The notes: generated from the sequence alone by a model not told the origin. 45,486 nucleotides of DNA from an uncultured Ignavibacteriales bacterium (GCA_964455535.1 CAYVWS010000001.1:1-45486), one strand, 5' to 3'; shown: positions 1,717 through 30,255, counted from the first letter of the stretch. Program-made: numbers and translations.

Positions 1717-1739
1717 GAATTCAAATGACGTCGATGTTA

Positions 1740-3011: not shown

Positions 3012-3394
3012 CCTCTCTTACGGGCGCCGCGACGAACCGGCTCTTCATCGAGCAGCTCAACCGGGGCATCTCCCCACAATTTTTCAAGCGCATAAAAGCG
3101 CCGCGTTGGTTCATAAAATACGTGCACTACAATATCAGTATAGTCCAACAGGACCCAATTCCCTTGTCTGACGCCCTCGGTAATAACCGGCTTATGCCCT
3201 TCGAGCCGCAGACCATCTTCAATCCCCTCGGCAATGGCCCGTACATGCACATTTGCGGTTCCGGATACAATCACAAAGTAATCGCACACGGAGGAGATCG
3301 ATTTCAATTTCAGGATCTTGACGTCAAACCCTTTTTTGTCCAGGGCGAGTCTTCCGGCGAGGCGGGCGCGGGACAGTGCGGACTGCGTTCTCAA
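3008..3394 (-). CDS. rsfS: Ribosome silencing factor RsfS (iojap family)
   Basis: [42 protein letters not shown]...[14 protein letters not shown] matches the RsfS pattern. TTG start overlaps the upstream gene stop (TTGA). Confidence 0.9.
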
Positions 3395-4591: not shown

Positions 4592-5332
4592 CTATTTCTT
4601 GGCGAATTTGGATTCAAGCACAGCAAGGTCGTCAGTCGAGTTTACCCCCAGCACCTCATCGGGACGCTCCGCCTTGACGACCGATACTCGCAAGCCCTTG
4701 CGATTAAATATCTTAACCACATCGGTCAAGTAGTATTCTTTCTGCGCGTTGTCGTTACCGAGCGTATCGATGACTTCGAACAACTTTTGGTTATTGAAGC
4801 AAAACGTTCCGGAATTGACTTCGGCGATTTGCCTAATGTCTTCGCTGGCGTCCTTGTGTTCTATGATATCCAAAAGTTGATCGGGCTGGACGCCTCGGAC
4901 AATTCGCCCGTAACCGGTCGGATCGGGAAAAACAGCCGAAAGGCAGGTTCCTGCCGCGCCGGTGTGCCGATGAACATCGAACAAGTGATTGATCGATTCG
5001 AGAGATAGAAGCGGCACATCGCCGGCCACAACCAAAGTCGTACCGTTGAAATCCGCCATAGCATCACGTGCCATCATTACGGCATGGCCGGTTCCGAGCT
5101 GCTCGCGCTGCCACGCGAATTGAGCCGGATAGTCTGAGAGTGCGGCTTGAACTTGTTCTCCCTTGTGGCCAATGACCACAACTGTTCGGGCCGGCTTCAA
5201 CTGCGCCAGCGTGTCCAAGAGAATTTTGATCATCGGACGGCCGCAGACCGGGTGGAGAACTTTGGGTAAGTCGGACTTCATCCGCTTGCCTTTGCCGGCT
5301 GCGAGTATGATGACTGCAATTTGCGAATCCAA
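4592..5332 (-). CDS. GlmU-like sugar-1-phosphate nucleotidyltransferase (uridyltransferase domain only)
   Basis: AVIILAAGKGKRMKSDLPKVLHPVCGRPM and QLGTGHAV are GlmU N-terminal signatures. The ORF ends at 246 aa, before any hexapeptide acetyltransferase domain. TTG start. Confidence 0.8.
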   Translation of the reverse strand: MDSQIAVIILAAGKGKRMKSDLPKVLHPVCGRPMIKILLDTLAQLKPARTVVVIGHKGEQVQAALSDYPAQFAWQREQLGTGHAVMMARDAMADFNGTTLVVAGDVPLLSLESINHLFDVHRHTGAAGTCLSAVFPDPTGYGRIVRGVQPDQLLDIIEHKDASEDIRQIAEVNSGTFCFNNQKLFEVIDTLGNDNAQKEYYLTDVVKIFNRKGLRVSVVKAERPDEVLGVNSTDDLAVLESKFAKK

Positions 5333-5371
5333 AGTGGTGGGAAACTTTCTACAGGTGTAGCTGCGGGTTGT

Positions 5372-5722
5372 CTATTTGATCGGTCGGTTTTTGGGGTCAA
5401 CTTGCACAACGATTGGTTTGAACGACTCCGCCTCGGTGCGGTCAATCTGAGCATAGGCAATGATAATAACCAAATCGCCAATCGCGGCTTTGCGCGCCGC
5501 CGCGCCGTTGATGACTATTTCGCCTGAACCCGGCTTGCCGGGAATGACATAGGTCTCAAACCGCTCGCCATTGTTGATATTTGCCACGGCTACCTGTTCA
5601 TGCGGAACCAAATCTGCCAGCTTCATCAGCTCGGAATCGATGGTTATCGATCCCTCATAGTTGAGATTGGCGTCAGTGACAGTGGCGCGGTGGATCTTTG
5701 ATCTAAAAACAGTAATCTTCAT
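5372..5722 (-). CDS. panD: Aspartate 1-decarboxylase
   Basis: [29 protein letters not shown] carries the Gly24-Ser25 self-processing site. Length of 116 aa is typical. Confidence 0.95.
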
Positions 5723-6235
5723 ACGTACAGCATTTCAACACTAAATGGTGCCGGAAGCTCCCCGAATATAGGGGCAAATCGCCGATCCGCAACCCCGACC
5801 GCCGTCCCGCTTGTAACATATTGAACTGTAGCTATATACAAAGAATTGACACTGCGATCATTTGCCGGAATTTTGAACGACAAGCCAAGGCGTGCCGCTT
5901 GTGAACCATTCGTCATGCAGCGTGCGGCCTCCAGCGGCAAGGGGCGTGACAAATCAATTCTATAGTTCTGTGCCTATCCGTCATTGCATCCCTCCTTTGC
6001 CATTTCCTTTCCGGTTGCTACTTTCGCGATCGCTGTCATTCCTGCCCACTGTGCCATTCCCGCCCCCATTGATATTCCCGCGCAGGCGGGAATCCAGTCT
6101 TCGATTTGTCGCGCCCCCTTTCAAAGTCGTAGCCATTCCCGTTTTTAGATTCCCCCTTCCCCTTCTATTCGCCAAATTCACAAATTGAGAAAAAATGGGA
6201 CCACTGGTCCCGTCACGACAGTACAAAGGACGCAA

Positions 6236-7498
6236 ATGGACAAATTCGTAGTTGCCGGTCCGGCCAAAATCCGGGGCAAGATCAAATCCGACGGTTCCAA
6301 GAATGCCGCCCTGCCCATCATCGCCGGCGCTCTCTTGATTGATAGGGGCGAGACCGTTCTTCGCAACATTCCCCAGCTTCGCGATATCGACACGATCGTC
6401 AAAATGCTCGAATATGTCGGGGCGAAAGTGAAGTACGATCCCAAGTCCGAAACCATGGCGATCAAGGCGGAGGGCGTTCGCGAAAATACGGCTCCTTACG
6501 ATCTGATGCGCCAAATGCGGGCGTCGTTTCTCGTTCTCGGCCCATTACTTGTCCGTATGGGTGAAGCCCGCATTTCGCTGCCGGGCGGCTGCTCGCTGGG
6601 TGCCCGACCGGTTGATTATCATATCAAGGCCTTTGCGGCTATGGGCGCCACCGTCACCGAAGAAAGCGGCTACGTCATCGCCAAAGCCAAGAAACTAACC
6701 GGCGGAACGATCTACTTCGACAAACCGTCCCACACCGGAACCGAAAATATTCTCTATGGCGCCGTGATGGCCAAGAAACCGACAGTGATCACCAACGCTG
6801 CCTGTGATCCCGAAATTGTCGACGTCGCCAATTTTCTGAAAAAAGCCGGCGCCAAAATTCACGGTGTCGGCACGCCTAATATTGTCGTTGAACCGGTGAA
6901 GCGTCTGCGGCCGGTAGAACACACTGTATCCGGCGACCGTCTCGTCGCGGGGACATACCTCTTCGCTGCCGCCCTGACTGGTGGAGCCGTCGAGGTCACC
7001 GGCGTCGTGCCGTCGGACCTGACGATGGTCCTGCACAAGCTCAGAGAAATGGGTTGCGAGATTTCTACGCGCAAATCGGCAATTGTCCTCAAAGCGCCCA
7101 AGCGGCTAAGCTCCGTGCAAGTGACAACTTTCCCATTCCCCGGCTTTCCGACCGACCTTCAGGCCTGTATTATGGCCGCCGCCTGCGTGGCCTCGGGAAC
7201 TTCTCATATCAAAGAGACTGTTTTTAATGATAGGTTCTCCCATTCGATGGAACTTCGCCGCCTGGGCGCCGAAGTAACCATCGCCGCCGACGAGGCGGTC
7301 ATCACCGGTGTAGAACACTTGGATGGCGCTTCGGTGATGGCACCGGACATACGCGCCGGCGCCGGATTGGTTCTGGCCTGCTTGGCGGGCCGAGGACGAT
7401 CGGAGATATTACGAGTCTATCATGTCGACCGAGGATATTATCGCCTTGAGGAAAAGTTGGCCTCCCTTGGAGCCGATATTACAAGAGAGAAAGATTAA
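6236..7498 (+). CDS. murA: UDP-N-acetylglucosamine 1-carboxyvinyltransferase
   Basis: MDKFVVAGPAKIRGKIKSDGSKNAALPIIAGALL and the active-site loop LPGGCSLGARPVD (Cys type). I place the start at ATG 6236 (AGGA 7 nt upstream), not at the TTG at 6185 used by the ORF track. Confidence 0.95.
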   Translation: MDKFVVAGPAKIRGKIKSDGSKNAALPIIAGALLIDRGETVLRNIPQLRDIDTIVKMLEYVGAKVKYDPKSETMAIKAEGVRENTAPYDLMRQMRASFLVLGPLLVRMGEARISLPGGCSLGARPVDYHIKAFAAMGATVTEESGYVIAKAKKLTGGTIYFDKPSHTGTENILYGAVMAKKPTVITNAACDPEIVDVANFLKKAGAKIHGVGTPNIVVEPVKRLRPVEHTVSGDRLVAGTYLFAAALTGGAVEVTGVVPSDLTMVLHKLREMGCEISTRKSAIVLKAPKRLSSVQVTTFPFPGFPTDLQACIMAAACVASGTSHIKETVFNDRFSHSMELRRLGAEVTIAADEAVITGVEHLDGASVMAPDIRAGAGLVLACLAGRGRSEILRVYHVDRGYYRLEEKLASLGADITREKD

Positions 7499-7617
7499 TC
7501 CGACCGACACCCGAAATTGTCTATTGGTCGGGTCGACAATTACTATAGCCCGATTCACCCGAACGGCTGAACGGAGTACAGCCCTGTTTCGTCCAGTTAG
7601 GAAAAAGGAACTAACTC

Positions 7618-10600
7618 GTGAAAAAAATCGTAGCTCTGTCAGTACTACTGGTCGTGTGCGCCGCCACGCTTCTGCCGGCCCAAGAGCGTGCCTTCGGCAA
7701 GAACAAGGTCACCTACAAGAAATTCGACTGGAAGTTCATTCAGACCCGGCACTTCGATATCTACTACTACGAAGATGCCTACTCGACCGCCAAGTTCGCT
7801 GCCGATGTCATGGAAGACGCCTACGTCGAAATCAGCCGCGAACTGGAATACAAGCTCCAGCGACGAGTTCCGGTGTTCGTCTATAACTCACAAAACGATT
7901 TCCAGCAGACTAACATTACCCCTGAATTGTTGCCCGAAGGTGTCGGCGGATTTACCGAGGCCTTCAAGAACCGCATTGTCATTCCCTTTACCGGCTCGTA
8001 TGAGGAGTTCCGCCATGTGCTGCACCACGAGCTGACACACGCCGTTGTCTACGATATTCTCTTCGGCAACTCGTTTGCCTCTTTACTTTCGCGCAATCGG
8101 CTTTTCGATCTGCCGCTCTGGTATGCCGAAGGGTATGCCGAATTTTCATCGCGTCATGGATGGGACTACTGGTCGGACATGTTCATCCGCGATGCGACCA
8201 TCAATAATTATATGGCCCCGCCCGACTATCTGGGCGGCTTCCTGGCCTACAAGCAGGGCCAGGCGATGATCAAGTACATCGTCGACAAGTACGGCGAAGC
8301 CAAGCTCGGCGAGATTCTGCAGAAAGGCAAAGTTCAGCTCTCGCTGAGCCGGGCTATGAAATCAGCGATCGGCGTCGACGAAAAAGAATTCTATGAAGAA
8401 TTTTCCAAAGAAATGAAACGGCGCTACTGGCCGGAAATTTCGGAGCGCAAGGAAGCGCCGGAGATCGGCAAGCAGTTGACCCACGCCCGCAAGGACGGTT
8501 CCTATTTCAACGAGCGACCGGCCTATTCTCCCGAGGGGGACAAAGTCGCGATCTTCTCCGATCGCCACGACTACGACGAAATTATTCTGTTGTCGGCAAC
8601 AACCGGCGAAGAGTTGGCGCGCGTCGTCAAGGCCCAGCGCTCAGGCGATCTTGAGTCACTGCACTCGTATTTCAGCGGAATGTCGTTCTCGGCCGACGGC
8701 AAACAAATCGCCTTCGTGGCCAAAACCAAAGGCAAAGACGCGATCTATCTTGCCGATGTGCGCCGCAAGAAAATCGTGAAGCGGATCATGCTGGACTTCC
8801 ACAACGTCCTCTCACCCAACTTTGCCCCCGACGGTGATCACATCGTCTTCTCGGCATTGGCCCAAGACAAACGCGACCTGTATTTGTATTCGGTCTCCGG
8901 CAACAACTTCAAAAAGTTGACCAACGACCGCTATGACGATGTCGAACCGAGCTGGACGCCGGACTCCAAGTCGATCATCTTCTCGTCCGACCGGCCGTCA
9001 CCGACAACTTCAAAAATCACCAATCTGGGTCAGGCCGCCACCGACTCCGCGATTCAAACCCCGGGCGGTTTCAGCTATGGCGTCTACAATATTTTCAAGC
9101 TCGACGTTGCCACCACCGAAGTGACACCCGTTGATGTCGGCTCCGGTTCCAACCGTTCCCCGGTTGTGTCACCCAACGGCAAGATGATCGCATTCGTCTC
9201 CAACCGAAACGGGATTGAGAATATTTATCTGGGATATCTGGATTCGGTCAAGTTTTACGCGGTGACCGACGTATTGACCGGAGTGCGGGACTTGTCGTGG
9301 TCGCCCGACGGACAAAAGCTTGCCTTCTCCGCTTTCTTCAACGGCGGCTTTGACGTATTCGTCATGAAAGACTTTGTCCCGGCCGGTGAGAACGGTGTCT
9401 TAAAACCGACCGATTTCATGATGGGCAAGTACAATCATCCTTTCAAGAAATCAGTCACGAAAGACGCCCTCGCCAAGCACGATTCAACCTCGGCGTCACC
9501 TGCTGATTCCGCCGGCGATTCGACCATTCTCGCCGCAGCCGATTCAACCGCCAATCCCGACACGACCGCGAAAAAGGACTCGGTCATTACTCAGACAGGC
9601 ATTCACGGCGATGATTTTGTCTATGTCAGCGGCCATGCACCTGATCCGATGGACACACTCCTCAAACCGGTACCCGGCGATTCCGCCGCAGCGCGCCCGA
9701 CCATGAAAGAGCCGGCATCTTTTGATTCGATTCCCCCGCCCTCGGAATCGGGCGAATACGCCGTTCACAAATACAAAGTGAAATTCACGCCTGACTATGT
9801 CGGCGGTGGCTTTGCCTACGACACTTTCTTCGGTGTGCGTGGTCAGTCGGTCTTCGTCTTTTCGGATTATCTGGGCAATCATCAGATTCTGATCGCGGCT
9901 GATCTGGTCAGCACGATCGACCAATCGTATGTCCAGGCATTTTATGTCAACAACGCTTCCCGGAATAACTTCGGTGTTGGACTCTTCCATACCAAGAACT
10001 ACTACGAAGACTCCAACAACTTCCTGTTTTCCGACCGGTACTACGGTCTGGCCGCATTCGCCGCCCATCCATTTTCGATTTTCAGCCGGATCGACGGCTC
10101 GGTGTCGCAGGTCTTTATCGACCGCAAATACTATGACGCGCTCGACCCGCACTACACTCATGACCGAAGCGTGAAAGTTTCTTATGGCGCCTTGTCATAT
10201 GTGTTCGATAACGTTTTATGGGGATATACCGGGCCGGTCAACGGACGTCGCTATGCGCTGACTGTCGACGCCGGCAAGGACCTTTTCACGTCGAATTCGA
10301 TGAGCTTCTACTCATTCGGTCTGGACTACCGCAAGTATTGGAATATCAGCAAAGTGGCATCGTTCGCCTTCCGCGCCTCCGGCGGAGCGTCATTCGGCCG
10401 CACCCCGAAGACATACTTCCTGGGCGGTGTTCAGAACTGGATCGGTTCGCGAGACCTCGATTCCCCGGTGTATGAAGTCGAAAATCTCTACTTCGCCGAT
10501 GTCGTCACCCCGATGCGCGGTCTGCCTATTTATGGGCTGGCCGGAGACCGCTATACCGCCTTCAACGCCGAACTTCGCTTCCCGCTTGTTCAGGTGCTGG

Positions 10601-10872
10601 CGTTCAAGTACCCGTTGCCGCTGGTCTTCACCAATATTCAGGGAGTTATGTTCACCGACATCGGTTCAGCGTGGTACGGCAGCAATTTCAAGGGTGGCAC
10701 ATCCGAAGGCGGCAAAGATCGGTTGCAGGATATTCACACCGGTTTCGGATTCGGGATGCGGATGAATTTCGCCGGTCTCGCCCTGCTTCGGTACGACATC
10801 GCCTGGCAGACCGATTTCAGCAAAGTATCGGACCGCCCCACCCACTATTTCTCGCTCGGCGCGGATTTCTGA
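7618..10872 (+). CDS. Large secreted/outer-membrane protein: HExxH peptidase-like domain + TolB-like PD40 propeller + Omp85-family beta-barrel
   Basis: Domains read in order:
- Signal peptide MKKIVALSVLLVVCAATLLPAQ.
- HELTH at 8026..8040.
- At least 6 PD40-like repeats (PAYSPEGDKVAIFSDR, SFSADGKQIAFVA, NFAPDGDHIVFSA, PSWTPDSKSIIFSSDR, PVVSPNGKMIAFVSNRNG, LSWSPDGQKLAFSA).
- D/S/T/A-rich linker.
- C-terminal Omp85 signatures (MRG at 10513..10521, NAELRFPL, FTDIGSAW, GFGFGMRMNF, terminal Phe).
GTG start preceded by AAAGGAA. Confidence 0.85.
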   Translation: MKKIVALSVLLVVCAATLLPAQERAFGKNKVTYKKFDWKFIQTRHFDIYYYEDAYSTAKFAADVMEDAYVEISRELEYKLQRRVPVFVYNSQNDFQQTNITPELLPEGVGGFTEAFKNRIVIPFTGSYEEFRHVLHHELTHAVVYDILFGNSFASLLSRNRLFDLPLWYAEGYAEFSSRHGWDYWSDMFIRDATINNYMAPPDYLGGFLAYKQGQAMIKYIVDKYGEAKLGEILQKGKVQLSLSRAMKSAIGVDEKEFYEEFSKEMKRRYWPEISERKEAPEIGKQLTHARKDGSYFNERPAYSPEGDKVAIFSDRHDYDEIILLSATTGEELARVVKAQRSGDLESLHSYFSGMSFSADGKQIAFVAKTKGKDAIYLADVRRKKIVKRIMLDFHNVLSPNFAPDGDHIVFSALAQDKRDLYLYSVSGNNFKKLTNDRYDDVEPSWTPDSKSIIFSSDRPSPTTSKITNLGQAATDSAIQTPGGFSYGVYNIFKLDVATTEVTPVDVGSGSNRSPVVSPNGKMIAFVSNRNGIENIYLGYLDSVKFYAVTDVLTGVRDLSWSPDGQKLAFSAFFNGGFDVFVMKDFVPAGENGVLKPTDFMMGKYNHPFKKSVTKDALAKHDSTSASPADSAGDSTILAAADSTANPDTTAKKDSVITQTGIHGDDFVYVSGHAPDPMDTLLKPVPGDSAAARPTMKEPASFDSIPPPSESGEYAVHKYKVKFTPDYVGGGFAYDTFFGVRGQSVFVFSDYLGNHQILIAADLVSTIDQSYVQAFYVNNASRNNFGVGLFHTKNYYEDSNNFLFSDRYYGLAAFAAHPFSIFSRIDGSVSQVFIDRKYYDALDPHYTHDRSVKVSYGALSYVFDNVLWGYTGPVNGRRYALTVDAGKDLFTSNSMSFYSFGLDYRKYWNISKVASFAFRASGGASFGRTPKTYFLGGVQNWIGSRDLDSPVYEVENLYFADVVTPMRGLPIYGLAGDRYTAFNAELRFPLVQVLAFKYPLPLVFTNIQGVMFTDIGSAWYGSNFKGGTSEGGKDRLQDIHTGFGFGMRMNFAGLALLRYDIAWQTDFSKVSDRPTHYFSLGADF

Positions 10873-10902
10873 TTCTATTCGCCAGATTGTAGCAAGAATT
10901 AT

Positions 10903-10936
10903 GGTGTCAGGCCTCCCGACCTGACACCGTTTTCGT
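10903..10936 (+). terminator. Rho-independent terminator after the 1084-aa gene
   Basis: GGTGTCAGG (10903..10911), 8-nt loop, CCTGACACC (10920..10928), then GTTTTCGT. A second small hairpin CCGATC-TGC-GATCGG followed by AATTTT lies at 10950..10970. Confidence 0.75.
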
Positions 10937-11024
10937 CTATGATAGCCGACCGATCTGCGATCGGAATTTTGCGATGCAATCCGCACCGCGTAGCGGTGCA
11001 CTATCATCCCGGAATGCATGATAT

Positions 11025-11058
11025 CCCAAAAGAAAACGCAGTCCTTGCGGACTGCGTT
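11025..11058 (-). terminator. Rho-independent terminator, minus strand, ending the Lon-like transcription unit
   Basis: On the minus strand: AACGCAGTCC-GCAA-GGACTGCGTT (10-bp stem, 11035..11058), followed by TTCTTTTGG. Confidence 0.65.
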
Positions 11059-11347
11059 ATGCGAAAACGAGGCGTTCGGCCACTTTCACTGTCAGTCGAG
11101 AACCGTTGATAGTTACCGGCGATTCCGATCCGATTTCCCTGTCTGACCAACTACGGATCAGAGCATCGTTGCTCCGGACAGTTCCCGCTCGTCGTTCGAG
11201 GATGCGCGTGACCTGCTTAGCATTGCGCACGAACCTCTTTCGCAAATCAATTGCACTGCAATTCAAATGATTGCCGCGAGGCCTGTCAAGGGAAAAATAA
11301 ATGGGGACGCGACCCCATGATAGGAATCGCGCCGTGTGATCTTGCAT
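11057..11347 (-). CDS. Possible small protein (96 aa) coupled to the Lon-like gene; may instead be a 3' UTR
   Basis: The ATG at 11347 lies 6 nt after the Lon-like stop (11354..11356). Its stop (11057..11059) sits inside the terminator stem. No recognisable domain, no SD, Arg-rich composition. Confidence 0.25.
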   Translation of the reverse strand: MQDHTARFLSWGRVPIYFSLDRPRGNHLNCSAIDLRKRFVRNAKQVTRILERRAGTVRSNDALIRSWSDREIGSESPVTINGSRLTVKVAERLVFA

Positions 11348-11353
11348 GTGTCG

Positions 11354-13879
11354 TTATCGACGAGCGGGCGGACGCCGATTCTTGCGACGTTCGACGCGTT
11401 TTGACTTTCCCGCATTGTTCGGCGACAGTCCGTTATCCTTTTCATCGCGACCAAAGCGATCGATATCGAGCGCCATCTGTCGCAGTTTCTTATCGGCCAG
11501 ATCGAATACTGATCGCTCGGGAAACACACCATTCCTGCCGCGAGTTCCTCCGGTTACACCAGTGAGAATTTCAATACCCTGATCGATAGACTTCACCGGC
11601 CAGAGATGGAATTTTCCTTTGCGGATCGCGTCGATAACATCGGGTCGCAACAGCAAGTCCTGTACGTTCTGGTGCGGCAGCATCACCCCCTGCTTGCCGG
11701 TCAGCTTGCGACTATTGCAGACATCGTAGAACCCCTCGACTTTTTCGTTGATACCGCCGATCGGCTGAATTTCGCCTTTCTGGTTCACCGAACCGGTGAC
11801 TGCGATTCCTTGATTGATTGGAATGCCCGTCAGCGCCGAGAGAATGCCGTAGATCTCGGCCGATGACGCCGAGTCACCGTCGACGCCGCCGTACGACTGC
11901 TCAAAGGTAATCGAGGCCGACATCGCCAGCGGTTTGTCCTGCGCAAAGGTCTGACGAAGATATCCGGAAAGCACGGCCACACCCTTAGTGTGGATTGGGC
12001 CGGACAGGTCGGCCTCACGCTCAACATTGATAATGCCTGCTTTTCCCAAACTGGTGTTTACCGTGATTCGGCTGGGACGGCCGAAAGAATACTCGCCGAC
12101 ATTGTAGACCGACAGCCCATTGACCTGCCCGACCGCCGAACCGGTTGTCGAAACCAGGAGCATCTCTTGATCGAACATCTCCTGTATCTTGTCTTCGATC
12201 AGATTGACACGTGATCGCCGCCCGATGATCGCCTTTTCGACATCGGCGCGATTCACCGTTTTGCCGTCGCGCTCGCGGGCGCGGAAATCACTCTCGCGCA
12301 GTATGTCCGCGATCAGAGTGAAGCGCACCGTCAGCTTTTCGCGATGCCCCGCCAACCGGCGTCCATATTCGGCGACGGCGGCCATGGCGGAAGTCTCAAA
12401 CGACATCAGCTGATCGTCGTCGATAATTCTTCGCATGAATCGGTAGTATTCTTTGGTGTTGGCTACCGTGTACGGCATCACCGAATCAAATTCCGCCTTG
12501 ACCTTGAAGATCAATTTGAATTCCTCGTCCATCTGCCACAGCGCTCGATAGACCCACGGCTCACCGATCAAGACTACTTTGACATCGACCGGGATCGGTT
12601 CGGGCTTGATCCCTGAACCAGCCATCATGTAGAATGGATCGTATCCCGAAATTTCCATCTCGCCGTTACGCAGGGCACGCTTCAGATGTGTCCACACGCC
12701 CGGTTCAGTCAACAGATCGAGCGCGTTGACTACCAAAAATCCGCCAGAGGCCTTGAGCAGTGACCCGCAGAATATCCGCGTAAAATCTGTTCGCCAGTAG
12801 CCGTATCGATCGACTACCCGTTCCATCGAACCGAAGAGGTTCTTGTATGAAGGCGATTTTTCGAGGATCACAGGTACCTTGTGGGTTTGAGAGTTGTCCA
12901 GAAGAAGATTGACCGAAAATTCCTCGAACGGTTCGCGACGTCTGAAAGCCGGCGCTTCTTCCTCGCCGCGCCGGGGTTGCGACTCGGCATATCGGTCGTC
13001 GTCGGTGGCGAGCGCCTCTTCTACTTCCTGCAGATACGCGGTCACTTGCGGATCGGGGTAGCGTTTCTTGAGCAAGTTGACCTTATCTCCCACCAGCGGA
13101 GCGACCATCGAGTGATTGAGCTTTTCGATGGCGTCGTCGAGTTTCATCGCGAGCTTCTTGGACTCCACGGTTGTCAGATCGAAGTCCCGTCGCAGCGAGT
13201 CCCAGCGCCGGCGCATTTCGTCAAGCTGGGCGGCGGCATATTTCCCCTCTTTGGTCAAACGTTCAAGTTTTTCAAGTGAGGCCGGTTCATTGTCGATCAG
13301 CGGCTGAATCTCGTTGCGTGCCCCCATCGGCGTCTGAATCTGCACCATGACAAAACCGGCGGCGGTCAGTTTGTTTTCGAACTCCTGCACCAATTCGCGC
13401 TGACGATTTTCAAACTCGCGCACCACCCGCGAATGACGGTCTTTGTAGTCTTCCGACAAGAATATCTTTGGTATGACCTTGCGAAGCGAGTCAACCAGAT
13501 ACTGCATGTCCTTCTTGAACCGCTTGCCGTCACCGGCTTTGAAAATCAGAACTCGTGGATTGTCGGCATTGCGGAAATTATTGACATAACAAATGTCATG
13601 CAGACGCGGCTCTTTGTGTTCGAGTCGTTCCAACAATTGTGAGATGGTGGTGCTGCGTCCGGTTCCCGACATTCCGGTCACGAAAATATTGAACCCGCGG
13701 CTCGGCACACTCAAGCCGACCCTGATCGCTTCAATCGCCCGCTCCTGGCCGATGATATCGTACGATGGTGTGATGTCGGATGAACTCTTGGCCCCTTTCG
13801 GGGAATATGTAATTGTATAGTCGAGGTCTTTTGCGGACAATGTCTTGTGCGTGAGTGCGCGCCGCGTACGTGTGGGCAT
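11354..13879 (-). CDS. Lon-like protease (LonC-like; AAA-like domain with a long insertion, plus a Lon Ser-Lys protease domain)
   Basis: - Protease domain: GGVDGDSASSAE (Ser codon 11870..11872) and GGINEKVEG (Lys codon 11741..11743).
- Walker A-like GMSGTGRST has Arg at the Lys position (13655..13657).
- The Walker B position reads FLVVNALD (N-A at 12722..12727).
- About 300 aa of charged, coiled-coil-like insertion lies between them.
Start chosen at ATG 13879 (GGAG 6 nt upstream) rather than TTG 13942. Confidence 0.85.
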   Translation of the reverse strand: MPTRTRRALTHKTLSAKDLDYTITYSPKGAKSSSDITPSYDIIGQERAIEAIRVGLSVPSRGFNIFVTGMSGTGRSTTISQLLERLEHKEPRLHDICYVNNFRNADNPRVLIFKAGDGKRFKKDMQYLVDSLRKVIPKIFLSEDYKDRHSRVVREFENRQRELVQEFENKLTAAGFVMVQIQTPMGARNEIQPLIDNEPASLEKLERLTKEGKYAAAQLDEMRRRWDSLRRDFDLTTVESKKLAMKLDDAIEKLNHSMVAPLVGDKVNLLKKRYPDPQVTAYLQEVEEALATDDDRYAESQPRRGEEEAPAFRRREPFEEFSVNLLLDNSQTHKVPVILEKSPSYKNLFGSMERVVDRYGYWRTDFTRIFCGSLLKASGGFLVVNALDLLTEPGVWTHLKRALRNGEMEISGYDPFYMMAGSGIKPEPIPVDVKVVLIGEPWVYRALWQMDEEFKLIFKVKAEFDSVMPYTVANTKEYYRFMRRIIDDDQLMSFETSAMAAVAEYGRRLAGHREKLTVRFTLIADILRESDFRARERDGKTVNRADVEKAIIGRRSRVNLIEDKIQEMFDQEMLLVSTTGSAVGQVNGLSVYNVGEYSFGRPSRITVNTSLGKAGIINVEREADLSGPIHTKGVAVLSGYLRQTFAQDKPLAMSASITFEQSYGGVDGDSASSAEIYGILSALTGIPINQGIAVTGSVNQKGEIQPIGGINEKVEGFYDVCNSRKLTGKQGVMLPHQNVQDLLLRPDVIDAIRKGKFHLWPVKSIDQGIEILTGVTGGTRGRNGVFPERSVFDLADKKLRQMALDIDRFGRDEKDNGLSPNNAGKSKRVERRKNRRPPARR

Positions 13880-14514
13880 CTCTTCTCCGTGAGCAATGAG
13901 TGACGTTACACCAAGATACCCCCCGCAGTCGAGGGCGATCAACCATTATCCGCGGACACCGTCGAATGAGGGACTCAGTTGTGAAATGTGAAAGTGACGA
14001 AGCGTTTCACTCGCGAGCGGTCGAAAGGTGTCTCACAAGTCGAAATCTGATGGTTGAGACAAGATCACGATCACACCGAAACCGGCGATGCGATTTCACG
14101 CATTAAGCCGGCAAGTAGGCCGCACGTCGACCCGCCACACTCGAAGCCAAAGTCGCCGAAATGCGCCACACACCTCCAAAATCATCTGCGTGTCAATTTT
14201 GACACAGCACGCCAATTCGGCGATGTCGGCTCTCGCACACAGCCCGAATATGGACTTTGGTTACAGGCGAGCTTACCTAACCTATTGGTCGGCATAAGCG
14301 GCCACACATCCAGTCAGTCACACAGCAAGAATTTGGTTTTGAAGCTGACTTTGGACTGCCATCTTGGCATCCGACGCAGGACTCGCGCCCCTTAGATGTG
14401 ATATAAAATCCTTAGTTTTTGACCAAAAATGTTGAATATCACAACCGCTTAAGCGGCTTGAAATTAACAGAGGCGCGTCTCGCAAGCTATTGCCAAATAA
14501 CAAGATCGCATTTC

Positions 14515-14543: not shown

Positions 14544-14576
14544 CCTGCGTTGCTTTCTTAGCATTGCGCATGACTT

Positions 14577-14649
14577 GGCGGTATCGTCTAGTGGCCCAGG
14601 ACGGGTGGTTCTCAGCCATCAAACCGGGGTTCGATTCCCCGTACCGCTA
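14577..14649 (+). tRNA. tRNA-Glu (anticodon CUC)
   Basis: Manual cloverleaf:
- Acceptor GGCGGTA/TACCGCT, with G1-U72 wobble.
- D arm GTCT..GGAC.
- Anticodon stem GGTGG/CCATC with loop TTCTCAG (CTC).
- T arm CGGGG-TTCGATT-CCCCG.
- Discriminator A; CCA is not encoded. Confidence 0.9.
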
Positions 14650-14656
14650 GAGCCAG

Positions 14657-15442: not shown

Positions 15443-17824
15443 TCAGGGCTTTTGCTCGGCGGTGGCAATTCGTCGCAGGTACTCCTGTAGCCGCTTAATC
15501 ACAATACTTCCGCCCGGTTCAGCGTTGTCGAAACTGAGCCAGCCGGCCTCGGCCGCAAGATCATCCGCTGCCTGAAAGAACGCACCCTTTATGCTCAGCT
15601 GTGCCATGCGGGCGCGGTAGTCGGAATCCAGAGCATCGATCGCTTCGAGTACGGTGCGTCGCTTGCGCACATAGTCAAACTTCACGCTGTCGGCGTACTC
15701 TGCGGCTGCCGCTGCACTTTGCGCGGCCAACGGCATTTCCAGACCGTAACGCCACAAATTCTTCCACTCGTTTCCGACCGCGGCCTCAACCAACAAACGG
15801 GCCGAGTCTTTTTGTGCGACGGCGGCCTCGCGCTCGGCGCTGACTCCGAGCGGCGGGGTGTGGGCAAAGAGCGGCCAGCGCATTTGAGCCGTAATCGACC
15901 AGACATCGTGCTTTTCGTCAAATCCCACCTGCTCAGCGAGCGAGTCCACAAGTCCGAACCACCCGCGCAGGCCAAGACTCGGATACCGACTCGCCTTTCC
16001 ATGGGCAATTCGTGATTCCGCCAAACTTACCTCCGCCGATCGCAGCCGCATGGCCGGATTGGCGGCCAGCGCTTCGACCTGCATGAATTTCTCGGCGGCA
16101 AGACTGAATCGCTCTGACGACATGATCATGCGTATTGGAACAAACTGATTGATCATATCGCCGCTTGAATATCCGCCGGAGTCGAGAATGGTCACCGTAT
16201 CGAGCACCGGACGGCCCATCAGCAGGTGCAAAAGACTGATCTGTTCCTGCAGGGCACGACGCGCGTCCATCAGGTCACGTAAATTTTCAAGCCGGCGCAC
16301 TTCCCATCGCGGGGTGTCATCGGCAGCGCCCGGATCGATGAAGTTATTAAGTCGCGCGATTTCTTTGAATTCAACAATCCTGGCATTCAACCGACTGAGT
16401 TCAGCAATGGCACGCTGGGCATCCAGACAATCGCGATAGGTAGCACGAAGCAGCCGCTGGACATCAAGCTCTGCCTGGGCCAAAGATGCGGAATCGACAG
16501 TTCGATTCGAACGAGCGACACGGATCGACTTGCTGACCTGGGGCGCAAAGAGCGGCTGCTGCACTTCGATTCCGGCGCGATACCGACCGCGGGATACTTC
16601 TCCGAAGGTGTTATCGGTCGCCGATTTCGATGCCGCTGTTGCCGCGCCTTCAAATGACACTTCCGGCAAGTACCCGCGCTTAAGATTGTCCAGTCGTTGA
16701 CCTGCCGCGTCAATCCGCGAGATCAGACCCTGTAATCCGGGATTCTGCGTCTGGGCATTGGCGAGAGCTTCGGCCAGTGTCAGACTCTGTGCCTCGGGCA
16801 GCATTGCGAATTCATCGATGACCTCTGCTTGTGCCCATATTTCGGCAGCGACGCGATCACTGGACATATCCAGCGCCGCTTTGTTGAGGATATATCCTCG
16901 TTGAGATGGATACTCAAGCGGCAGATCGGAGGGCACCGCCCCCTGGATTATCTTAACTGTCTTCATCGCCGCAAACAGCGCCGCGCTTTGTTCGGCGCGG
17001 ACCGAACTGGATGATGAGAGCCCCTTCTCAACGATGAACCTCCCCTCGGATGTGTGCACCGGAATCATATCGTTGCGGGCATTGGCGCTGAATTGGTCAA
17101 GAGCAGGCAATGACAGCCCCCAGAGCGGCCCGACATAGAGAGCATCCATAGGCCGGGGAAGTCCGGAATATCCTTTGAAATACGCGAATACCCCGTCGGC
17201 GTTGTACCCCTGCGCCCAGACAATTTTGATCCCGAGTTTTTTGCCTGCCTGCCAGCATTTTTCATAATAGGCAGTGTCACGGAAATCTTTGTTGAACGCT
17301 AGCACTCCCACAACTTTGGGATGGTAAAGCGCAACCATGTCGCTTAGGTCCTGCTTGATCTGATCGGGGCGAACCTGCACGGTAAGGTTGTTGGCAATCG
17401 GCCGGTGATCCGGGCCTAACAGCCCTTCGGCTTCCGGGTCGAGCTGCCAAAGGCCGACGATGGGACGAGCAAATCCGGCCTTGAGCAGGGCCTCGACGAC
17501 CCACGGCCCGATTGCGACTACAATATCAATGCTCGTGTCGCGAACATATTCCTCCGCCATTTGCTTGCACTGATCCTTCTTCCATGCGGCGGTTTTGAAC
17601 CCATTGGCGACATAGATGATTTCCGCCGATGAGGGGACCAAATGCTCGAGGGCATCGCGATACTCGTTGCGAACGATAGTATTGTTGTAATATTCGCCGG
17701 CCTCGAAAAATCCAACCTTTACTACTTTGCGCGGGGCCGCGCCGACCGACAGCGGGAAGACCGCCAACAGTAATCCGGCCAAGAGGATAAATCGCTTTAG
17801 GGAGTGTACTTTCACGGCCCACAT
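15443..17824 (-). CDS. Fusion protein: periplasmic-binding-protein-like (ABC_sub_bind-like) domain + TolC-family outer-membrane efflux channel
   Basis: - Start set at ATG 17824 (MWAVKVHSLKRFILLAGLLLAVFPLSVGAAP signal peptide; in-frame GTG at 17815 is an alternative).
- About 16814..17731 reads like an ABC substrate-binding fold (KVVKVGFFEAG...IDIVVAIGPWVVEALLKAG..PIVGLWQLDPEAEGLL...NLTVQV...VVGVLAF...GIKIVWAQ...ALYVGP...IPVHTSEGRFIVEKG...IIQGAVPSDLPLEYPS...ILNKAALD).
- About 15446..16786 is TolC/OEP-like (LTLAEALANAQTQNPGLQGL..., two repeats).
- The 153 codons upstream in the ORF track look non-coding. Confidence 0.8.
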   Translation of the reverse strand: MWAVKVHSLKRFILLAGLLLAVFPLSVGAAPRKVVKVGFFEAGEYYNNTIVRNEYRDALEHLVPSSAEIIYVANGFKTAAWKKDQCKQMAEEYVRDTSIDIVVAIGPWVVEALLKAGFARPIVGLWQLDPEAEGLLGPDHRPIANNLTVQVRPDQIKQDLSDMVALYHPKVVGVLAFNKDFRDTAYYEKCWQAGKKLGIKIVWAQGYNADGVFAYFKGYSGLPRPMDALYVGPLWGLSLPALDQFSANARNDMIPVHTSEGRFIVEKGLSSSSSVRAEQSAALFAAMKTVKIIQGAVPSDLPLEYPSQRGYILNKAALDMSSDRVAAEIWAQAEVIDEFAMLPEAQSLTLAEALANAQTQNPGLQGLISRIDAAGQRLDNLKRGYLPEVSFEGAATAASKSATDNTFGEVSRGRYRAGIEVQQPLFAPQVSKSIRVARSNRTVDSASLAQAELDVQRLLRATYRDCLDAQRAIAELSRLNARIVEFKEIARLNNFIDPGAADDTPRWEVRRLENLRDLMDARRALQEQISLLHLLMGRPVLDTVTILDSGGYSSGDMINQFVPIRMIMSSERFSLAAEKFMQVEALAANPAMRLRSAEVSLAESRIAHGKASRYPSLGLRGWFGLVDSLAEQVGFDEKHDVWSITAQMRWPLFAHTPPLGVSAEREAAVAQKDSARLLVEAAVGNEWKNLWRYGLEMPLAAQSAAAAAEYADSVKFDYVRKRRTVLEAIDALDSDYRARMAQLSIKGAFFQAADDLAAEAGWLSFDNAEPGGSIVIKRLQEYLRRIATAEQKP

Positions 17825-18034
17825 TATACACAGAAACAGCCCAAAGGGGCAAGTCATCTGAAACTGTTCAGACCGGCTCAATCCGATATGCGAACTTAGG
17901 GACGGTGTCACTTTTTTGTCCGTTTGCGCAAATTTGTGTTGACGGAGCGATGAACAAATGCCGATACTTGGGGAACATATAGCAGTAAGCAATAAACCAA
18001 ATAGCATAACGCCGCGATTAAGAGAAAGAGTTTG

Positions 18035-18177: not shown

Positions 18178-18224
18178 GAACCAATTGCCTGCCGAAAAAC
18201 ATCGCACGCAAAGGAAATGAAGAT

Positions 18225-30193: not shown

Positions 30194-30255
30194 GGCAGGG
30201 CAATATATCCCCCAATCAAAGCGACCGCAAGTCCGCCGCACGCAGCGCGCAAAGT

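What the first reader, a model, noticed from the sequence alone, without database searches (positions are those of the whole stretch)
7618..10872. Omp85-type barrel without recognisable POTRA repeats, preceded by an HExxH peptidase-like domain and a TolB-like propeller
Seen in sequence, in a single 1084-aa secreted protein:
- (i) A domain of about 270 aa with HELTH (8026..8040) in a context resembling MA-clan peptidase-like domains.
- (ii) At least six PD40/TolB-type repeats (about 8500..9372).
- (iii) A D/S/T/A/P-rich linker of about 100 aa (about 9460..9762) containing the DNA-level repeat GATTC(A/G/C)(A/G)CC.
- (iv) A C-terminal segment of about 370 aa with Omp85/BamA hallmarks: an L6-like MRG motif (10513..10521), NAELRFPL, FTDIGSAW, GFGFGMRMNF, and a terminal Phe.

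Established knowledge: Omp85 proteins (BamA, TamA, FhaC) use N-terminal POTRA domains to handle substrates. None is evident by eye in this protein.

Inference: this could be a surface or periplasmic protease/chaperone tethered to, or exported through, its own Omp85 barrel. Equivalently it would be an Omp85 machine whose substrate-handling module is a propeller plus metallopeptidase. The function appears uncharacterised.
Basis: partly seen in the sequence, partly recalled or inferred. Interest (0 to 1): 0.68.

Follow-up and report, generated by a model that had tools for sequence, protein, structure and literature searches.

The report
POTRA-less Omp85 barrel with peptidase-propeller
This Zixibacteria gene encodes an outer-membrane barrel of the BamA type that carries a zinc peptidase and a TolB-like propeller on a long flexible tether where the usual POTRA domains would be; the design is real and widespread, was catalogued in 2014, and has never been studied experimentally.

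Summary
ORF 7618..10872 (+) encodes a 1084-aa secreted protein with four parts:
- a gluzincin-type peptidase domain (HExxH plus a WxxEGxAE third-ligand motif, both near-invariant)
- a six-bladed TolB/PD40 propeller
- a disordered D/S/T/A-rich linker
- a 16-strand Omp85 barrel with the L6 (M)RG and beta13 FxDxG lid-lock motifs and a terminal Phe.

No POTRA domain was found by HMM search or in the structure model. In some relatives the linker is only 25-38 aa, too short to hold one.

The architecture is not new. It matches the 'WD40-like Omp85' subfamily of Heinz & Lithgow 2014, whose Table S3 already lists BamA, TolB and aminopeptidase fold hits. A 2024 paper still calls that subfamily uncharacterised.

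The family is large. The barrel alone finds 904 cluster representatives at E<=1e-10, and 82 of 84 long ones carry the same peptidase domain. It appears in all 80 Zixibacteria loci retrieved, usually just downstream of murA.

The most likely role is a periplasm-facing, outer-membrane-tethered metallopeptidase for envelope protein processing or quality control. Self-export through the barrel is less likely by analogy with PlpD, whose enzyme domain is now shown to be periplasmic.

One new detail: the linker is an array of D-(S/T)-(A/I/L/V/M/T) motifs, the Bacteroidota O-glycosylation sequon, about four-fold above the composition-based expectation.

The parts
7618..7680 (+). Sec-type signal peptide (aa 1-21, MKKIVALSVLLVVCAATLLPA|QE)
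   Evidence: Sequence inspection. The model has a helix at residues 2-17. The region is poorly conserved among homologues. No convincing lipobox.
7681..7731 (+). Highly conserved N-terminal motif of the mature protein (aa 22-38, QE..FGKNKVxYxxFDW)
   Evidence: F26, G27, N29, K30, V31, Y33 and W38 are invariant in 60 homologues. It is the most conserved segment of the protein, with majority fraction 0.90. Residues 17-32 are modelled at pLDDT below 50. Its role is unexplained.
7732..8466 (+). Gluzincin (clan MA(E)) metallopeptidase-like domain, aa 39-283. HELTH is at 8026..8040. The third-ligand motif WYAEGYAE is at 8119..8142 (E171 = 8128..8130). Y211 is conserved.
   Evidence: Pfam Peptidase_MA_2, 35.6 bits, above the gathering score of 32.4. 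H137/E138/H141/W168/E171/G172/E175/Y211 are conserved in 82-83 of 83 divergent relatives. The domain model has pLDDT 83.6. Foldseek matches M9 collagenase T (2.6e-4, TMq 0.51) and the M1 factor F3 (4.8e-4, TMq 0.54).
8467..9366 (+). Six-bladed PD40/TolB-type beta-propeller, aa 284-583, with a poorly modelled insertion at aa 458-490 in blade 4
   Evidence: Pfam PD40 3.2e-27. NCBIfam TolB 3e-37, below its cut-off. PDB TolB sequences down to 2.4e-17. Six blades in the model. Foldseek TolB 1e-13.
9436..9696 (+). Disordered D/S/T/A-rich tether, aa 607-693. It carries an array of D-(S/T)-(A/I/L/V/M/T) motifs (9 sites between aa 622 and 705, 9481..9732).
   Evidence: pLDDT about 30. Length varies from 100 to 186 aa in Zixibacteria and from 25 to 151 aa in distant relatives. 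The motif occurs 302 times against 72 expected from shuffles in 60 homologues. DNA repeat GATTCVRCC: 5 of 8 window matches lie here.
9592..9786 (+). Conserved pre-barrel segment, aa 659-723 (TGIxxDDFVYVS..DPxDxLL ... EPASFDSIPPP..GEYxxxKYKVKF). It is not a POTRA domain.
   Evidence: Conserved in the alignment. The model shows only a short hairpin (661-668) and two short helices. Residues 701-720 are modelled at pLDDT 87-90. There is no beta-alpha-alpha-beta-beta unit.
9787..10869 (+). 16-strand Omp85/BamA-type beta-barrel, aa 724-1084. The L6 loop is at 10396..10536 with M-R-G at 10513..10521. The strand-13 motif FTDIG is at 10651..10665. The protein ends ...YFSLGADF.
   Evidence: 16 strands by DSSP. 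Foldseek matches F. nucleatum BamA at 1.6e-10 and the E. coli BamA barrel at 9.6e-10 with TMt 0.55. The barrel profile matches BamA chains at 4.1e-13 and 1.6e-5. R967, G968, F1012 and D1014 are invariant in 17 divergent barrels. NCBIfam TamL matches aa 980-1065 at 5e-7.
10901..10930 (.). Terminator-like GC-rich hairpin 29 nt after the stop codon, readable on both strands
   Evidence: Consensus scan. This is a pattern match only.
6185..7498 (+). murA, the conserved upstream neighbour on the same strand, separated by a 119-nt gap
   Evidence: Pfam EPSP_synthase family 4.5e-95. It lies directly upstream in 73 of 80 Zixibacteria loci. The link is not conserved in distant lineages.

Best explanation
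The gene encodes a Zixibacteria member of the POTRA-less 'WD40-like Omp85' subfamily.

**Shown here**
- After Sec export, the C-terminal 16-strand BamA-type barrel would sit in the outer membrane.
- The N-terminal module is an apparently active gluzincin metallopeptidase joined to a six-bladed TolB-like propeller.
- A 25-186-aa disordered tether joins the two. It may be O-glycosylated.

**Inferred mechanism**
- The N-terminal module stays on the periplasmic side, where the N-terminus of every known Omp85 barrel lies.
- The propeller captures or filters unfolded polypeptides or peptides and presents them to the peptidase. Propellers do this in tricorn protease, prolyl oligopeptidase and DPP-IV.
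- The barrel holds this activity at the inner face of the outer membrane.
- The likely job is processing or quality control of envelope proteins. This could be alongside BAM, in the way the soluble protease BepA works in E. coli.

**Status of each step**
- Shown: the domain identities, the intact active-site motifs and the family membership.
- Inferred: the topology, the substrates and the role of the barrel.
For: **Domains and models**
- Pfam and NCBIfam hits.
- Full-length model, pLDDT 78.4 and pTM 0.72, with 16 strands and six blades.
- Foldseek matches to TolB and BamA.
- Barrel profile against PDB BamA chains, 4e-13.
- Peptidase-domain model matching M9 and M1 catalytic domains.

**Selection for catalysis**
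- HExxH, WxxEGxAE and Y211 are conserved in 82-83 of 83 relatives that share only 30-42% identity.

**The module travels as a unit**
- 82 of 84 long representatives found with the barrel alone also carry the peptidase domain at their N-terminus.

**No POTRA**
- No Pfam POTRA hit at E<=1.
- No POTRA fold in the model.
- Linkers as short as 25-38 aa in some relatives.

**Topology by analogy**
- The enzyme domain of the Omp85 protein PlpD is periplasmic (PMC11116518).
- Established knowledge: both termini of a 16-strand barrel face the periplasm.

**Envelope context**
- murA lies directly upstream in 73 of 80 Zixibacteria loci.
- LpxC-FabZ, a CDP-alcohol phosphatidyltransferase and a TolC-like gene lie nearby.

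**Prior cataloguing**
- PMC4104836, Tables S2 and S3.
Against: - There is no experimental or computational evidence here for the topology of the N-terminal module.
- The barrel (majority fraction 0.77) and its L6 loop (0.85) are about as conserved as the peptidase (0.82). The lid-lock motifs are invariant. That is more constraint than a passive anchor would seem to need.
- A tether of 100-186 aa is longer than anchoring requires and could thread a barrel.
- No partner gene is conserved across lineages, so no pathway can be assigned.
- Peptidase activity is predicted from motifs only.
Confidence: 0.5

Rival explanations
1. Omp85 machine with a replaced substrate-handling module. The barrel is an active insertase or translocase for other proteins. 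The propeller-peptidase takes over the POTRA role of receiving clients, as a BamA-BamB-like fusion (suggested by Heinz & Lithgow), and also trims or degrades them.
For: - The lid-lock (L6 RG and strand-13 FxDxG) and the C-terminal YFSLGxxF are conserved as in BamA.
- The barrel is as conserved as the catalytic domain.
- Heinz & Lithgow note that Sam50 stays functional in binding and assembling beta-barrel substrates when its single POTRA domain is removed (PMC4104836).
- The same paper suggests the BamA-BamB fusion idea.
Against: - The long, variable, disordered tether (25-186 aa) gives no fixed geometry between the module and the lateral gate. POTRA5 and BamB are rigidly placed in BAM.
- The propeller is six-bladed and TolB-like, not the eight-bladed BamB type.
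- No client gene is conserved next to it.
Confidence: 0.2
2. Self-export, type V-like. The barrel carries its own N-terminal peptidase-propeller across the outer membrane, with the tether spanning the pore. The result would be a surface-displayed or released protease for nutrient acquisition.
For: - The tether is long enough to cross a barrel.
- Heinz & Lithgow raised translocation for Omp85-enzyme fusions by analogy with the older view of PlpD.
- The Bacteroidota motif can also be glycosylated on extracellular segments (PMC12871550).
Against: - The only precedent, PlpD, is now shown to keep its enzyme domain in the periplasm.
- There is no POTRA.
- The conserved lid-lock closes Omp85 barrels. 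This is established knowledge for BamA and TamA, and the motifs are invariant here.
- Some relatives have linkers of only 25-38 aa, too short to span a membrane and leave slack.
- A folded 560-aa zinc enzyme plus propeller would have to pass unfolded without an energy source.
Confidence: 0.12
3. Structural envelope tether, as a TolB paralogue. The propeller binds a Pal-like lipoprotein or peptidoglycan-associated partner, and the peptidase-like domain acts on peptidoglycan stem peptides or is only a binding domain. This would link the outer membrane to the wall, which fits the murA neighbourhood.
For: - TolB is the closest propeller by sequence and fold.
- murA is directly upstream in 73 of 80 Zixibacteria loci.
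- SPOR-domain and LapB genes lie near relatives in other lineages.
Against: - The TolB score is far below the NCBIfam cut-off: 128.6 against 343.
- There is no TolB N-terminal domain and no tol-pal genes are adjacent.
- The murA link is confined to Zixibacteria.
- The fold resembles protein and peptide hydrolases of families M9 and M1, not known peptidoglycan hydrolases.
Confidence: 0.08

Closest known systems
'WD40-like' Omp85 subfamily of Heinz & Lithgow 2014 (PMC4104836; e.g. UniProt H1XQ58, D0MEQ5, B3QRX6, B0VIY2, A9FGN9)
   Same: - PD40 repeats plus a PF01103 barrel, with no POTRA.
- Best fold hits to BamA/TamA, TolB and M1-type aminopeptidases (Tables S2 and S3).
- These are the same three modules in the same order as found here.
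   Different: - Zixibacteria were not among the members I saw listed.
- The paper named the group for the propeller and did not discuss the peptidase domain in the text.
- Direct sequence comparison with the listed accessions could not be run.
BamA / TamA (Omp85 insertases)
   Same: - 16-strand barrel.
- L6 (V/M)RG motif locked to FxDxG on strand 13.
- C-terminal YFSxGxxF.
- Detectable profile and fold similarity.
   Different: - No POTRA domains.
- A disordered tether in place of the rigid POTRA5-barrel junction.
- An enzyme and a propeller at the N-terminus.
- No evidence of insertase activity.
PlpD / FplA (patatin-like Omp85, 'type Vd')
   Same: - An enzyme domain fused N-terminally to an Omp85 barrel.
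- The enzyme domain was shown to be periplasmic for PlpD, which is the model for the topology proposed here.
   Different: - PlpD has one POTRA domain and a short helical linker, and its lipase docks on the POTRA and dimerises.
- Here there is no POTRA, the enzyme is of a different class, and the linker is long and disordered.
TolB (Tol-Pal system)
   Same: Six-bladed PD40 propeller; closest by sequence and by structure.
   Different: - No TolB N-terminal domain.
- Score below the family cut-off.
- Not in a tol-pal operon.
- Covalently tied to a peptidase and a barrel.
Clan MA(E) gluzincins: M9 collagenases and M1 aminopeptidases (including tricorn-interacting factor F3); Pfam Peptidase_MA_2
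   Same: - HExxH plus a downstream Glu in an EGxAE-type helix.
- Thermolysin-like catalytic fold.
- The 29-residue His-to-Glu spacing resembles what I recall for M9. That recollection was not checked here.
   Different: - Only 11-16% identity.
- No significant sequence match to any solved structure.
- GGFTE sits where M1 enzymes carry the GxMEN exopeptidase motif. This is by inspection and from memory of the M1 motif.
- No M9 activator or M1 N- and C-terminal domains.
BepA (E. coli periplasmic M48 metalloprotease that works with BAM)
   Same: A functional analogy only: an HExxH protease with a protein-binding repeat domain acting at the outer-membrane assembly site. This rests on established knowledge, not on a test here.
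   Different: - Different peptidase family.
- TPR repeats rather than a propeller.
- Soluble rather than fused to a barrel.
- No homology was shown.

Membership tests
Omp85 superfamily | C-terminal 16-stranded beta-barrel | tested here: met
   16 strands over aa 724-1080 in the AlphaFold2 model. Foldseek matches BamA barrels at 1.6e-10 to 1e-9, TMt up to 0.55.
Omp85 superfamily | Sequence homology to the Omp85 barrel (PF01103 / BamA) | tested here: met
   The query alone has no PF01103 hit. A 17-sequence family profile matches BamA chains at 4.1e-13 and 1.6e-5. Relatives at 34-42% identity score 33.6-55.9 bits against the PF01103 gathering score of 24.
Omp85 superfamily | L6 (V/L/M)RG(F/Y) motif and strand-13 FxDxG lid-lock | tested here: met
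   M966-R967-G968 lies in the loop between strands 11 and 12, and F1012-x-D1014-x-G1016 lies on strand 13. R, G, F and D are invariant in 17 divergent barrels.
Omp85 superfamily | At least one N-terminal POTRA domain | tested here: not met
   No POTRA family matched at E<=1. There is no beta-alpha-alpha-beta-beta unit between propeller and barrel. The propeller-to-barrel linker is only 25-38 aa in some relatives. The literature already accepts POTRA-less subfamilies (PMC4104836).
WD40-like Omp85 subfamily (Heinz & Lithgow 2014) | PD40/TolB-like propeller N-terminal to an Omp85 barrel, with no POTRA | tested here: met
   compared with Table S2 architectures PF07676 x n + PF01103.
WD40-like Omp85 subfamily (Heinz & Lithgow 2014) | Aminopeptidase-like (clan MA) domain at the N-terminus | tested here: met
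   Table S3 lists best aminopeptidase hits 1z5h, 4kxd, 4fgm and 3qnf. Here Foldseek finds F3 (1z1w) and other M1 and M9 enzymes.
WD40-like Omp85 subfamily (Heinz & Lithgow 2014) | Direct sequence relatedness to the listed members | not tested
Indirect support: a Calditrichaeota genome carries a 56%-identical full-length homologue (L049). Caldithrix, the source of listed member H1XQ58, belongs to that phylum (organism assignment from my own knowledge).
TolB (Tol-Pal) | Score above the curated family cut-off, and the TolB N-terminal domain | tested here: not met
   TIGR02800 scores 128.6 bits against a cut-off of 343.15 and covers the propeller only. No TolB N-terminal domain hit in Pfam.
TolB (Tol-Pal) | tol-pal operon context | tested here: not met
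   The neighbours are murA, panD, an NTP transferase and a LonC-like protease.
Gluzincin metallopeptidase (clan MA(E), Pfam Peptidase_MA_2) | HExxH plus a downstream Glu as third zinc ligand | tested here: met
   H137-E138-x-x-H141 and E171 in WxxEGxAE are conserved in 82-83 of 83 relatives. PF13485 scores above its gathering score. Zinc geometry itself could not be measured.
Gluzincin metallopeptidase (clan MA(E), Pfam Peptidase_MA_2) | Thermolysin-like catalytic fold | tested here: met
   The domain model (pLDDT 83.6) matches M9 and M1 catalytic domains at E 2.6e-4 to 2e-3, TMq 0.50-0.57. The significance is modest.
M1 aminopeptidase family | GxMEN exopeptidase motif and HExxH-X18-E spacing | tested here: not met
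   By inspection, GGFTE (aa 110-114) replaces GxMEN, and the His-to-Glu spacing is 29 residues. The M1 motif and spacing are from my own knowledge. No significant sequence hit to any M1 structure.
Type Vd autotransporter (PlpD-like) | Patatin domain, one POTRA and an Omp85 barrel | tested here: not met
   No patatin or POTRA hit. Only the barrel is shared.
TamL (Bacteroidota Omp85 lipoprotein, NF052279) | Score above the cut-off, and a lipoprotein signal | tested here: not met
   28.5 bits against a cut-off of 400, covering aa 980-1065 only. No convincing lipobox by inspection.

The most novel reading that the evidence does not exclude
The protein is a self-contained outer-membrane quality-control machine.
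- A POTRA-less but gate-competent Omp85 barrel would recognise stalled or misfolded beta-barrel clients at the membrane.
- It would hand them to its own tethered propeller-peptidase for destruction, fusing BamA-like recognition with BepA/DegP-like proteolysis.
- The tether would be a Bacteroidota-style O-glycosylated spacer. That would extend this motif-driven glycosylation system to Zixibacteria.
Probability: 0.12. Interest if true: 0.75.

Novelty: new member of a known kind. Interest (0 to 1): 0.4.

Why it matters
**The family**
- Omp85 proteins are central to building outer membranes, and POTRA domains are usually treated as part of their definition.
- This family has at least 904 cluster representatives at 50% identity. 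It shows that a fully conserved BamA-type barrel, lid-lock included, is maintained with an enzyme and a propeller where POTRA domains would be.
- It has been listed since 2014 without any experiment.

**What working it out would show**
- Whether Omp85 barrels can serve as plain anchors, or whether they perform gate-dependent work without POTRA.
- A new envelope protease of many FCB-group and other environmental bacteria.

**The linker**
- The sequon-rich tether is a concrete, testable hint that motif-directed O-glycosylation may not be confined to Bacteroidota.

Tried and rejected
**Searches that found nothing decisive**
- Cryptic POTRA: Pfam at E<=1, inspection of the model between aa 584 and 723 and linker lengths across the family. 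Rejected.
- The query against PF01103 directly: no hit. Membership had to be shown through a family profile and through fold.
- Profile of the peptidase domain against PDB sequences: nothing significant. The best match was an M9 collagenase at E=0.2, over the WxxEGxAEY helix. Only fold comparison placed the domain.
- Literature on Peptidase_MA_2 / PF13485: one unrelated paper.
- Follow-up work on WD40-like Omp85: only a passing mention in the PlpD paper.
- Literature search for Zixibacteria, outer membrane and BamA: one unrelated paper.
- Rfam over the whole window: only a tRNA.

**Ideas tested and dropped or left open**
- A conserved operon partner that would name a pathway. murA is upstream only in Zixibacteria. 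Other lineages have mutS upstream, DsbD downstream or a tandem paralogue. No universal partner exists.
- The 'Metallo' Omp85 subfamily of Heinz & Lithgow as the home of this protein. Rejected, because that group carries PF00149, a different domain.
- Proteome-level enrichment of the D-(S/T)-(A/I/L/V/M/T) motif in signal-peptide proteins, across about 1 Mb of Zixibacteria flanks. Observed/expected was 1.53 against 1.33 for other proteins, using crude gene calling, a crude signal-peptide rule and non-independent syntenic genes. Inconclusive.
- A second, canonical Omp85 gene in the window or in the 80 loci. None was found in the flanks. This says nothing about the rest of the genomes.

Full report

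Yes. The ORF listing gives one ORF, 7618..10872 on the + strand, with a GTG start and 1084 aa. A purine-rich stretch (AAGGAA) lies a few bases upstream of the start. A terminator-like hairpin lies at 10901..10930, 29 nt after the stop. The N-terminus MKKIVALSVLLVVCAATLLPA|QE reads as a Sec signal peptide. This is by inspection; the model puts a helix at residues 2-17.

- HELTH is aa 137-141 (8026..8040).
- The PD40 region 8500..9372 corresponds to aa 295-585.
- The linker 9460..9762 corresponds to aa 615-715.
- M-R-G at 10513..10521 is aa 966-968.
- The protein ends in Phe.

**2. Domain by domain**

*Peptidase domain*
- Pfam Peptidase_MA_2 matches aa 67-257 at 35.6 bits, just above its gathering score of 32.4.
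- NCBIfam gives a weak match to the HExxH protease flagellinolysin at 4e-7.
- In 60 Zixibacteria homologues, H137, E138, H141, W168, E171, G172, A174 and E175 are invariant.
- I extracted the same domain from 82 cluster representatives found with the barrel alone and aligned them with the query (83 sequences). A diverse subset shares only 30-41% identity with the query. In this set the conservation is as follows:

| Residue | Conserved in |
|---|---|
| H137 | 82/83 |
| E138 | 83/83 |
| H141 | 82/83 |
| W168 | 83/83 |
| E171 | 82/83 |
| G172 | 83/83 |
| E175 | 83/83 |
| Y211 | 82/83 |

It is a Glu in a WxxEGxAE helix, 29 residues after the second His, which is the gluzincin arrangement.
- A profile of the domain finds no significant sequence match in the PDB. 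The best is an M9 collagenase at E=0.2, aligned exactly over WxxEGxAEY.
- A separate AlphaFold2 model of the domain (pLDDT 83.6, pTM 0.83) matches these catalytic domains:
  - collagenase T, family M9: 2.6e-4, TMq 0.51
  - tricorn-interacting factor F3, family M1: 4.8e-4, TMq 0.54
  - a Vibrio collagenase: TMq 0.57
  - many other M1 aminopeptidases
- The domain is therefore a divergent clan MA(E) peptidase whose catalytic residues are under selection.
- It is not an M1 member. The spacing is wrong, and GGFTE stands where M1 enzymes have GxMEN. This is by inspection, and the M1 motif is from my own knowledge.

*Propeller*
- Pfam PD40 scores 3.2e-27 with four significant stretches.
- NCBIfam TolB scores 3e-37 but reaches only 128.6 bits against a cut-off of 343.
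- TolB chains in the PDB match down to 2.4e-17.
- The full-length model shows six four-stranded blades between aa 284 and 583.
- Foldseek puts TolB first at 1e-13.
- There is no TolB N-terminal domain and no tol-pal context. It is a TolB-like propeller, not TolB.

*Linker*
- aa 607-693 are modelled as disordered, with pLDDT about 30.
- The segment is the least conserved in the protein, with majority fraction 0.33.
- Its length varies from 100 to 186 aa among Zixibacteria and from 25 to 151 aa among distant relatives.
- The DNA repeat GATTC(A/G/C)(A/G)CC is real: 5 of the 8 window matches lie in 9481..9687. It is just the codons for Asp-Ser-Thr/Ala.
  - In the linkers of 60 homologues the motif occurs 302 times, against 72 expected from composition-preserving shuffles.
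  - 47 of the 60 are individually at p<=0.05.
  - The density is 6.0 per 100 aa, against 0.37 in the rest of the protein.
  - In distant relatives the count is 63 against 12.8 expected.
  - No other protein of the window has such a cluster.
- The review states that this motif-driven system is so far known only in Bacteroidota, and that the glycan is added in the periplasm.
- A crude proteome-level check on about 1 Mb of Zixibacteria DNA was inconclusive.
- After the variable part comes a conserved segment, aa 659-723 (TGIxxDDFVYVS..DPxDxLL..EPASFDSIPPP..GEYxxxKYKVKF). Its last 20 residues are modelled confidently. It is not a POTRA fold.

*Barrel*
- The model has 16 strands over aa 724-1080.
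- A 47-residue loop lies between strands 11 and 12 and carries M966-R967-G968. F1012-x-D1014-x-G1016 lies on strand 13. This is the L6 and strand-13 lid-lock arrangement described for Omp85 proteins (PMC11358297).
- R967, G968, F1012 and D1014 are invariant in 17 barrels that share 31-63% identity.
- The query does not reach Pfam PF01103 on its own. Membership rests on four other results:
  - The 17-sequence profile matches Fusobacterium BamA at 4.1e-13 and other BamA chains at 1.6e-5 to 3e-4. The alignment includes the C-terminal YFSLGxxF.
  - Foldseek matches BamA barrels at 1.6e-10 to 1e-9, with TMt 0.55 for the isolated E. coli barrel.
  - Relatives at 34-42% identity exceed the PF01103 gathering score.
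  - NCBIfam TamL matches aa 980-1065 at 5e-7.

*POTRA*
- No POTRA family appears even at E<=1.
- The model shows no such fold.
- Relatives with propeller-to-barrel linkers of 25-38 aa have no room for one.

**3. How widespread is it?**

- The search for homologous proteins returned more than 120 full-length homologues at 55-82% identity. Where a name carried an organism it was mostly Zixibacteria, candidate division GN15 or FCB group. Generic names included 'PD40 domain-containing protein', 'peptidase MA family metallohydrolase' and 'BamA/TamA family outer membrane protein'.
- A scan of one genome per species confirmed a relative at 327 sites. Most of the best 80 records are titled Zixibacteria or GN15; many carry other MAG labels (uncultured Ignavibacteriales, 'bacterium'), and one is labelled Calditrichaeota.
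- phmmer with the barrel alone, against 1.84 billion cluster representatives, found 1657 hits at E<=1e-3, 904 at <=1e-10 and 203 at <=1e-30. Most are 920-1170 aa long with the barrel at the C-terminus.
- Of the 84 listed representatives of 900 aa or more, 82 have the peptidase domain at the N-terminus. The three-part protein is inherited as a unit.
- A few relatives have the propeller but no detectable peptidase (P0172 and P0265).

**4. Context**

- In Zixibacteria, murA lies directly upstream on the same strand in 73 of 80 loci. A LonC-like protease lies convergently downstream in 50 of 80.
- The window also holds several envelope genes:
  - an LpxC-FabZ fusion
  - an NTP transferase
  - a CDP-alcohol phosphatidyltransferase
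  - a 946-aa TolC-like protein
  - MurJ
  - a polysaccharide cluster
- The murA link does not hold in distant lineages. There the neighbours are mutS, SPOR/LapB genes, DsbD or a tandem paralogue.
- The gene therefore looks like a stand-alone housekeeping envelope gene with no fixed partner.

**5. What is already known**

- Heinz & Lithgow 2014 (PMC4104836) split the Omp85/TpsB superfamily into ten subfamilies. One is 'WD40-like': a TolB-like propeller and no POTRA.
- Their Table S2 gives its Pfam architectures as PF07676 repeats plus PF01103.
- Their Table S3 lists, per member, best Phyre2 hits to BamA/TamA (4k3b, 4c00), to TolB (2w8b, 2ivz) and, in a column headed 'best aminopeptidase hit', to 1z5h (F3), 4kxd, 4fgm and 3qnf. 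That is the same tripartite protein.
- They suggested it resembles a BamA-BamB fusion.
- Their separate 'Metallo' subfamily carries PF00149 and is unrelated.
- Hanson et al. 2024 (PMC11116518) still list the WD40-like subfamily among those 'not well characterized'.
- I found no functional study.

**6. How it most likely works**

*Shown*
- A secreted protein with a BamA-type barrel, a tether, a TolB-like propeller and a peptidase domain whose catalytic residues are conserved.

*Inferred*
- The N-terminus of an Omp85 barrel faces the periplasm. This is established knowledge.
- The one studied Omp85-enzyme fusion, PlpD, keeps its enzyme in the periplasm.
- I therefore favour a periplasm-facing metallopeptidase tethered to the inner face of the outer membrane, with confidence 0.5.
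- In this reading the propeller acts as a substrate filter or binding platform, as in tricorn protease and the S9 peptidases. The likely job is processing or clearance of envelope proteins.

*Rivals*
- The barrel is an active insertase or translocase and the module replaces POTRA (0.2). This is favoured by the strong conservation of the barrel and lid-lock. It is disfavoured by the floppy, variable tether.
- Self-export to the surface (0.12). This is disfavoured by the PlpD result, the lid-lock, and the 25-38-aa linkers in some relatives.
- A TolB-like structural tether linked to the cell wall (0.08).

None of these can be excluded with the tools at hand. I could not read model coordinates or predicted aligned error. 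I could not check whether Zixibacteria also have a canonical BamA; the flanks I hold contain none.

**7. Verdict**

The protein is uncharacterised and lacks POTRA, but the kind is already catalogued, so this is a new member of a known kind.
- Interest is moderate at 0.4. The family is large, conserved and unexplored, and it bends the usual definition of Omp85 proteins. A specialist would recognise it, however.
- Two details are, to my knowledge, unreported and cheap to test:
  - the sequon-array tether
  - the very highly conserved but unplaced N-terminal motif FGKNKVxYxxFDW (majority fraction 0.90; pLDDT below 50 for residues 17-32).

Noticed in passing
window 9481..9732 (aa 622-705 of the ORF): The linker is an array of D-(S/T)-(A/I/L/V/M/T) tripeptides, the Bacteroidota O-glycosylation sequon. 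There are 302 observed against 72 expected across 60 homologues, and 63 against 12.8 in distant relatives. The motif-driven system is so far described only in Bacteroidota (PMC12871550).
   Followed up: partly
window 7681..7731 (aa 22-38): The first residues of the mature protein (FGKNKVxYxxFDW) are the most conserved segment of all, with majority fraction 0.90. Residues 17-32 are modelled at pLDDT below 50. This may be a docking strand for a partner or for another part of the protein. Unexplained.
   Followed up: no
window 6185..7498 and 11354..13942; loci L001-L080: murA lies directly upstream on the same strand in 73 of 80 Zixibacteria loci. A LonC-like AAA+ protease lies convergently downstream in 50 of 80. 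The link is lost in distant lineages.
   Followed up: partly
window 200..1591 (-): A single 463-aa ORF combines LpxC (aa 5-300) and a FabA/FabZ-like dehydratase (aa 331-454). It is a lipid A / fatty-acid fusion protein.
   Followed up: no
window 15443..18283 (-): A 946-aa ORF whose only Pfam hit is the outer-membrane efflux protein family (best stretch aa 503-632). About 500 N-terminal residues have no match, and the called start may be too far upstream.
   Followed up: no
L081 265..3300 and 5001..8072: In one distant lineage, two paralogues of the family (1011 and 1023 aa) sit 1.7 kb apart on the same strand. The first has only a weak match to the barrel profile, 36.8 bits.
   Followed up: no
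L083 2410..5016 / 5001..7949; L084 2419..5016 / 5001..7970: In two other lineages, mutS lies directly upstream and overlaps the family gene by 16 nt. A sigma-54 response regulator lies directly downstream, and SPOR and LapB genes are nearby.
   Followed up: no
window 10901..10930 and 10930..11350: A GC-rich hairpin readable as a terminator on both strands follows the gene. About 420 bp before the convergent Lon-like gene contain further hairpins (11035..11058, 11301..11333) and no Rfam match.
   Followed up: no
window 29000..30241 (-): A 413-aa protein with a right-handed beta-helix and a C-terminal FlgD_ig-like domain. That domain was listed together with CHU_C on a protein next to a PorP/SprF gene in a relative's locus, so it may be a type IX secretion cargo.
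   Followed up: no
window 1725..3095 (+) / 1740..3011 (-): Two long ORFs overlap on opposite strands. The + strand one (456 aa) has no Pfam hit. Which of the two is the real gene was not resolved.
   Followed up: no
window 14576..14650 (+): tRNA-Glu (CTC), the only RNA gene detected in the window.
   Followed up: yes
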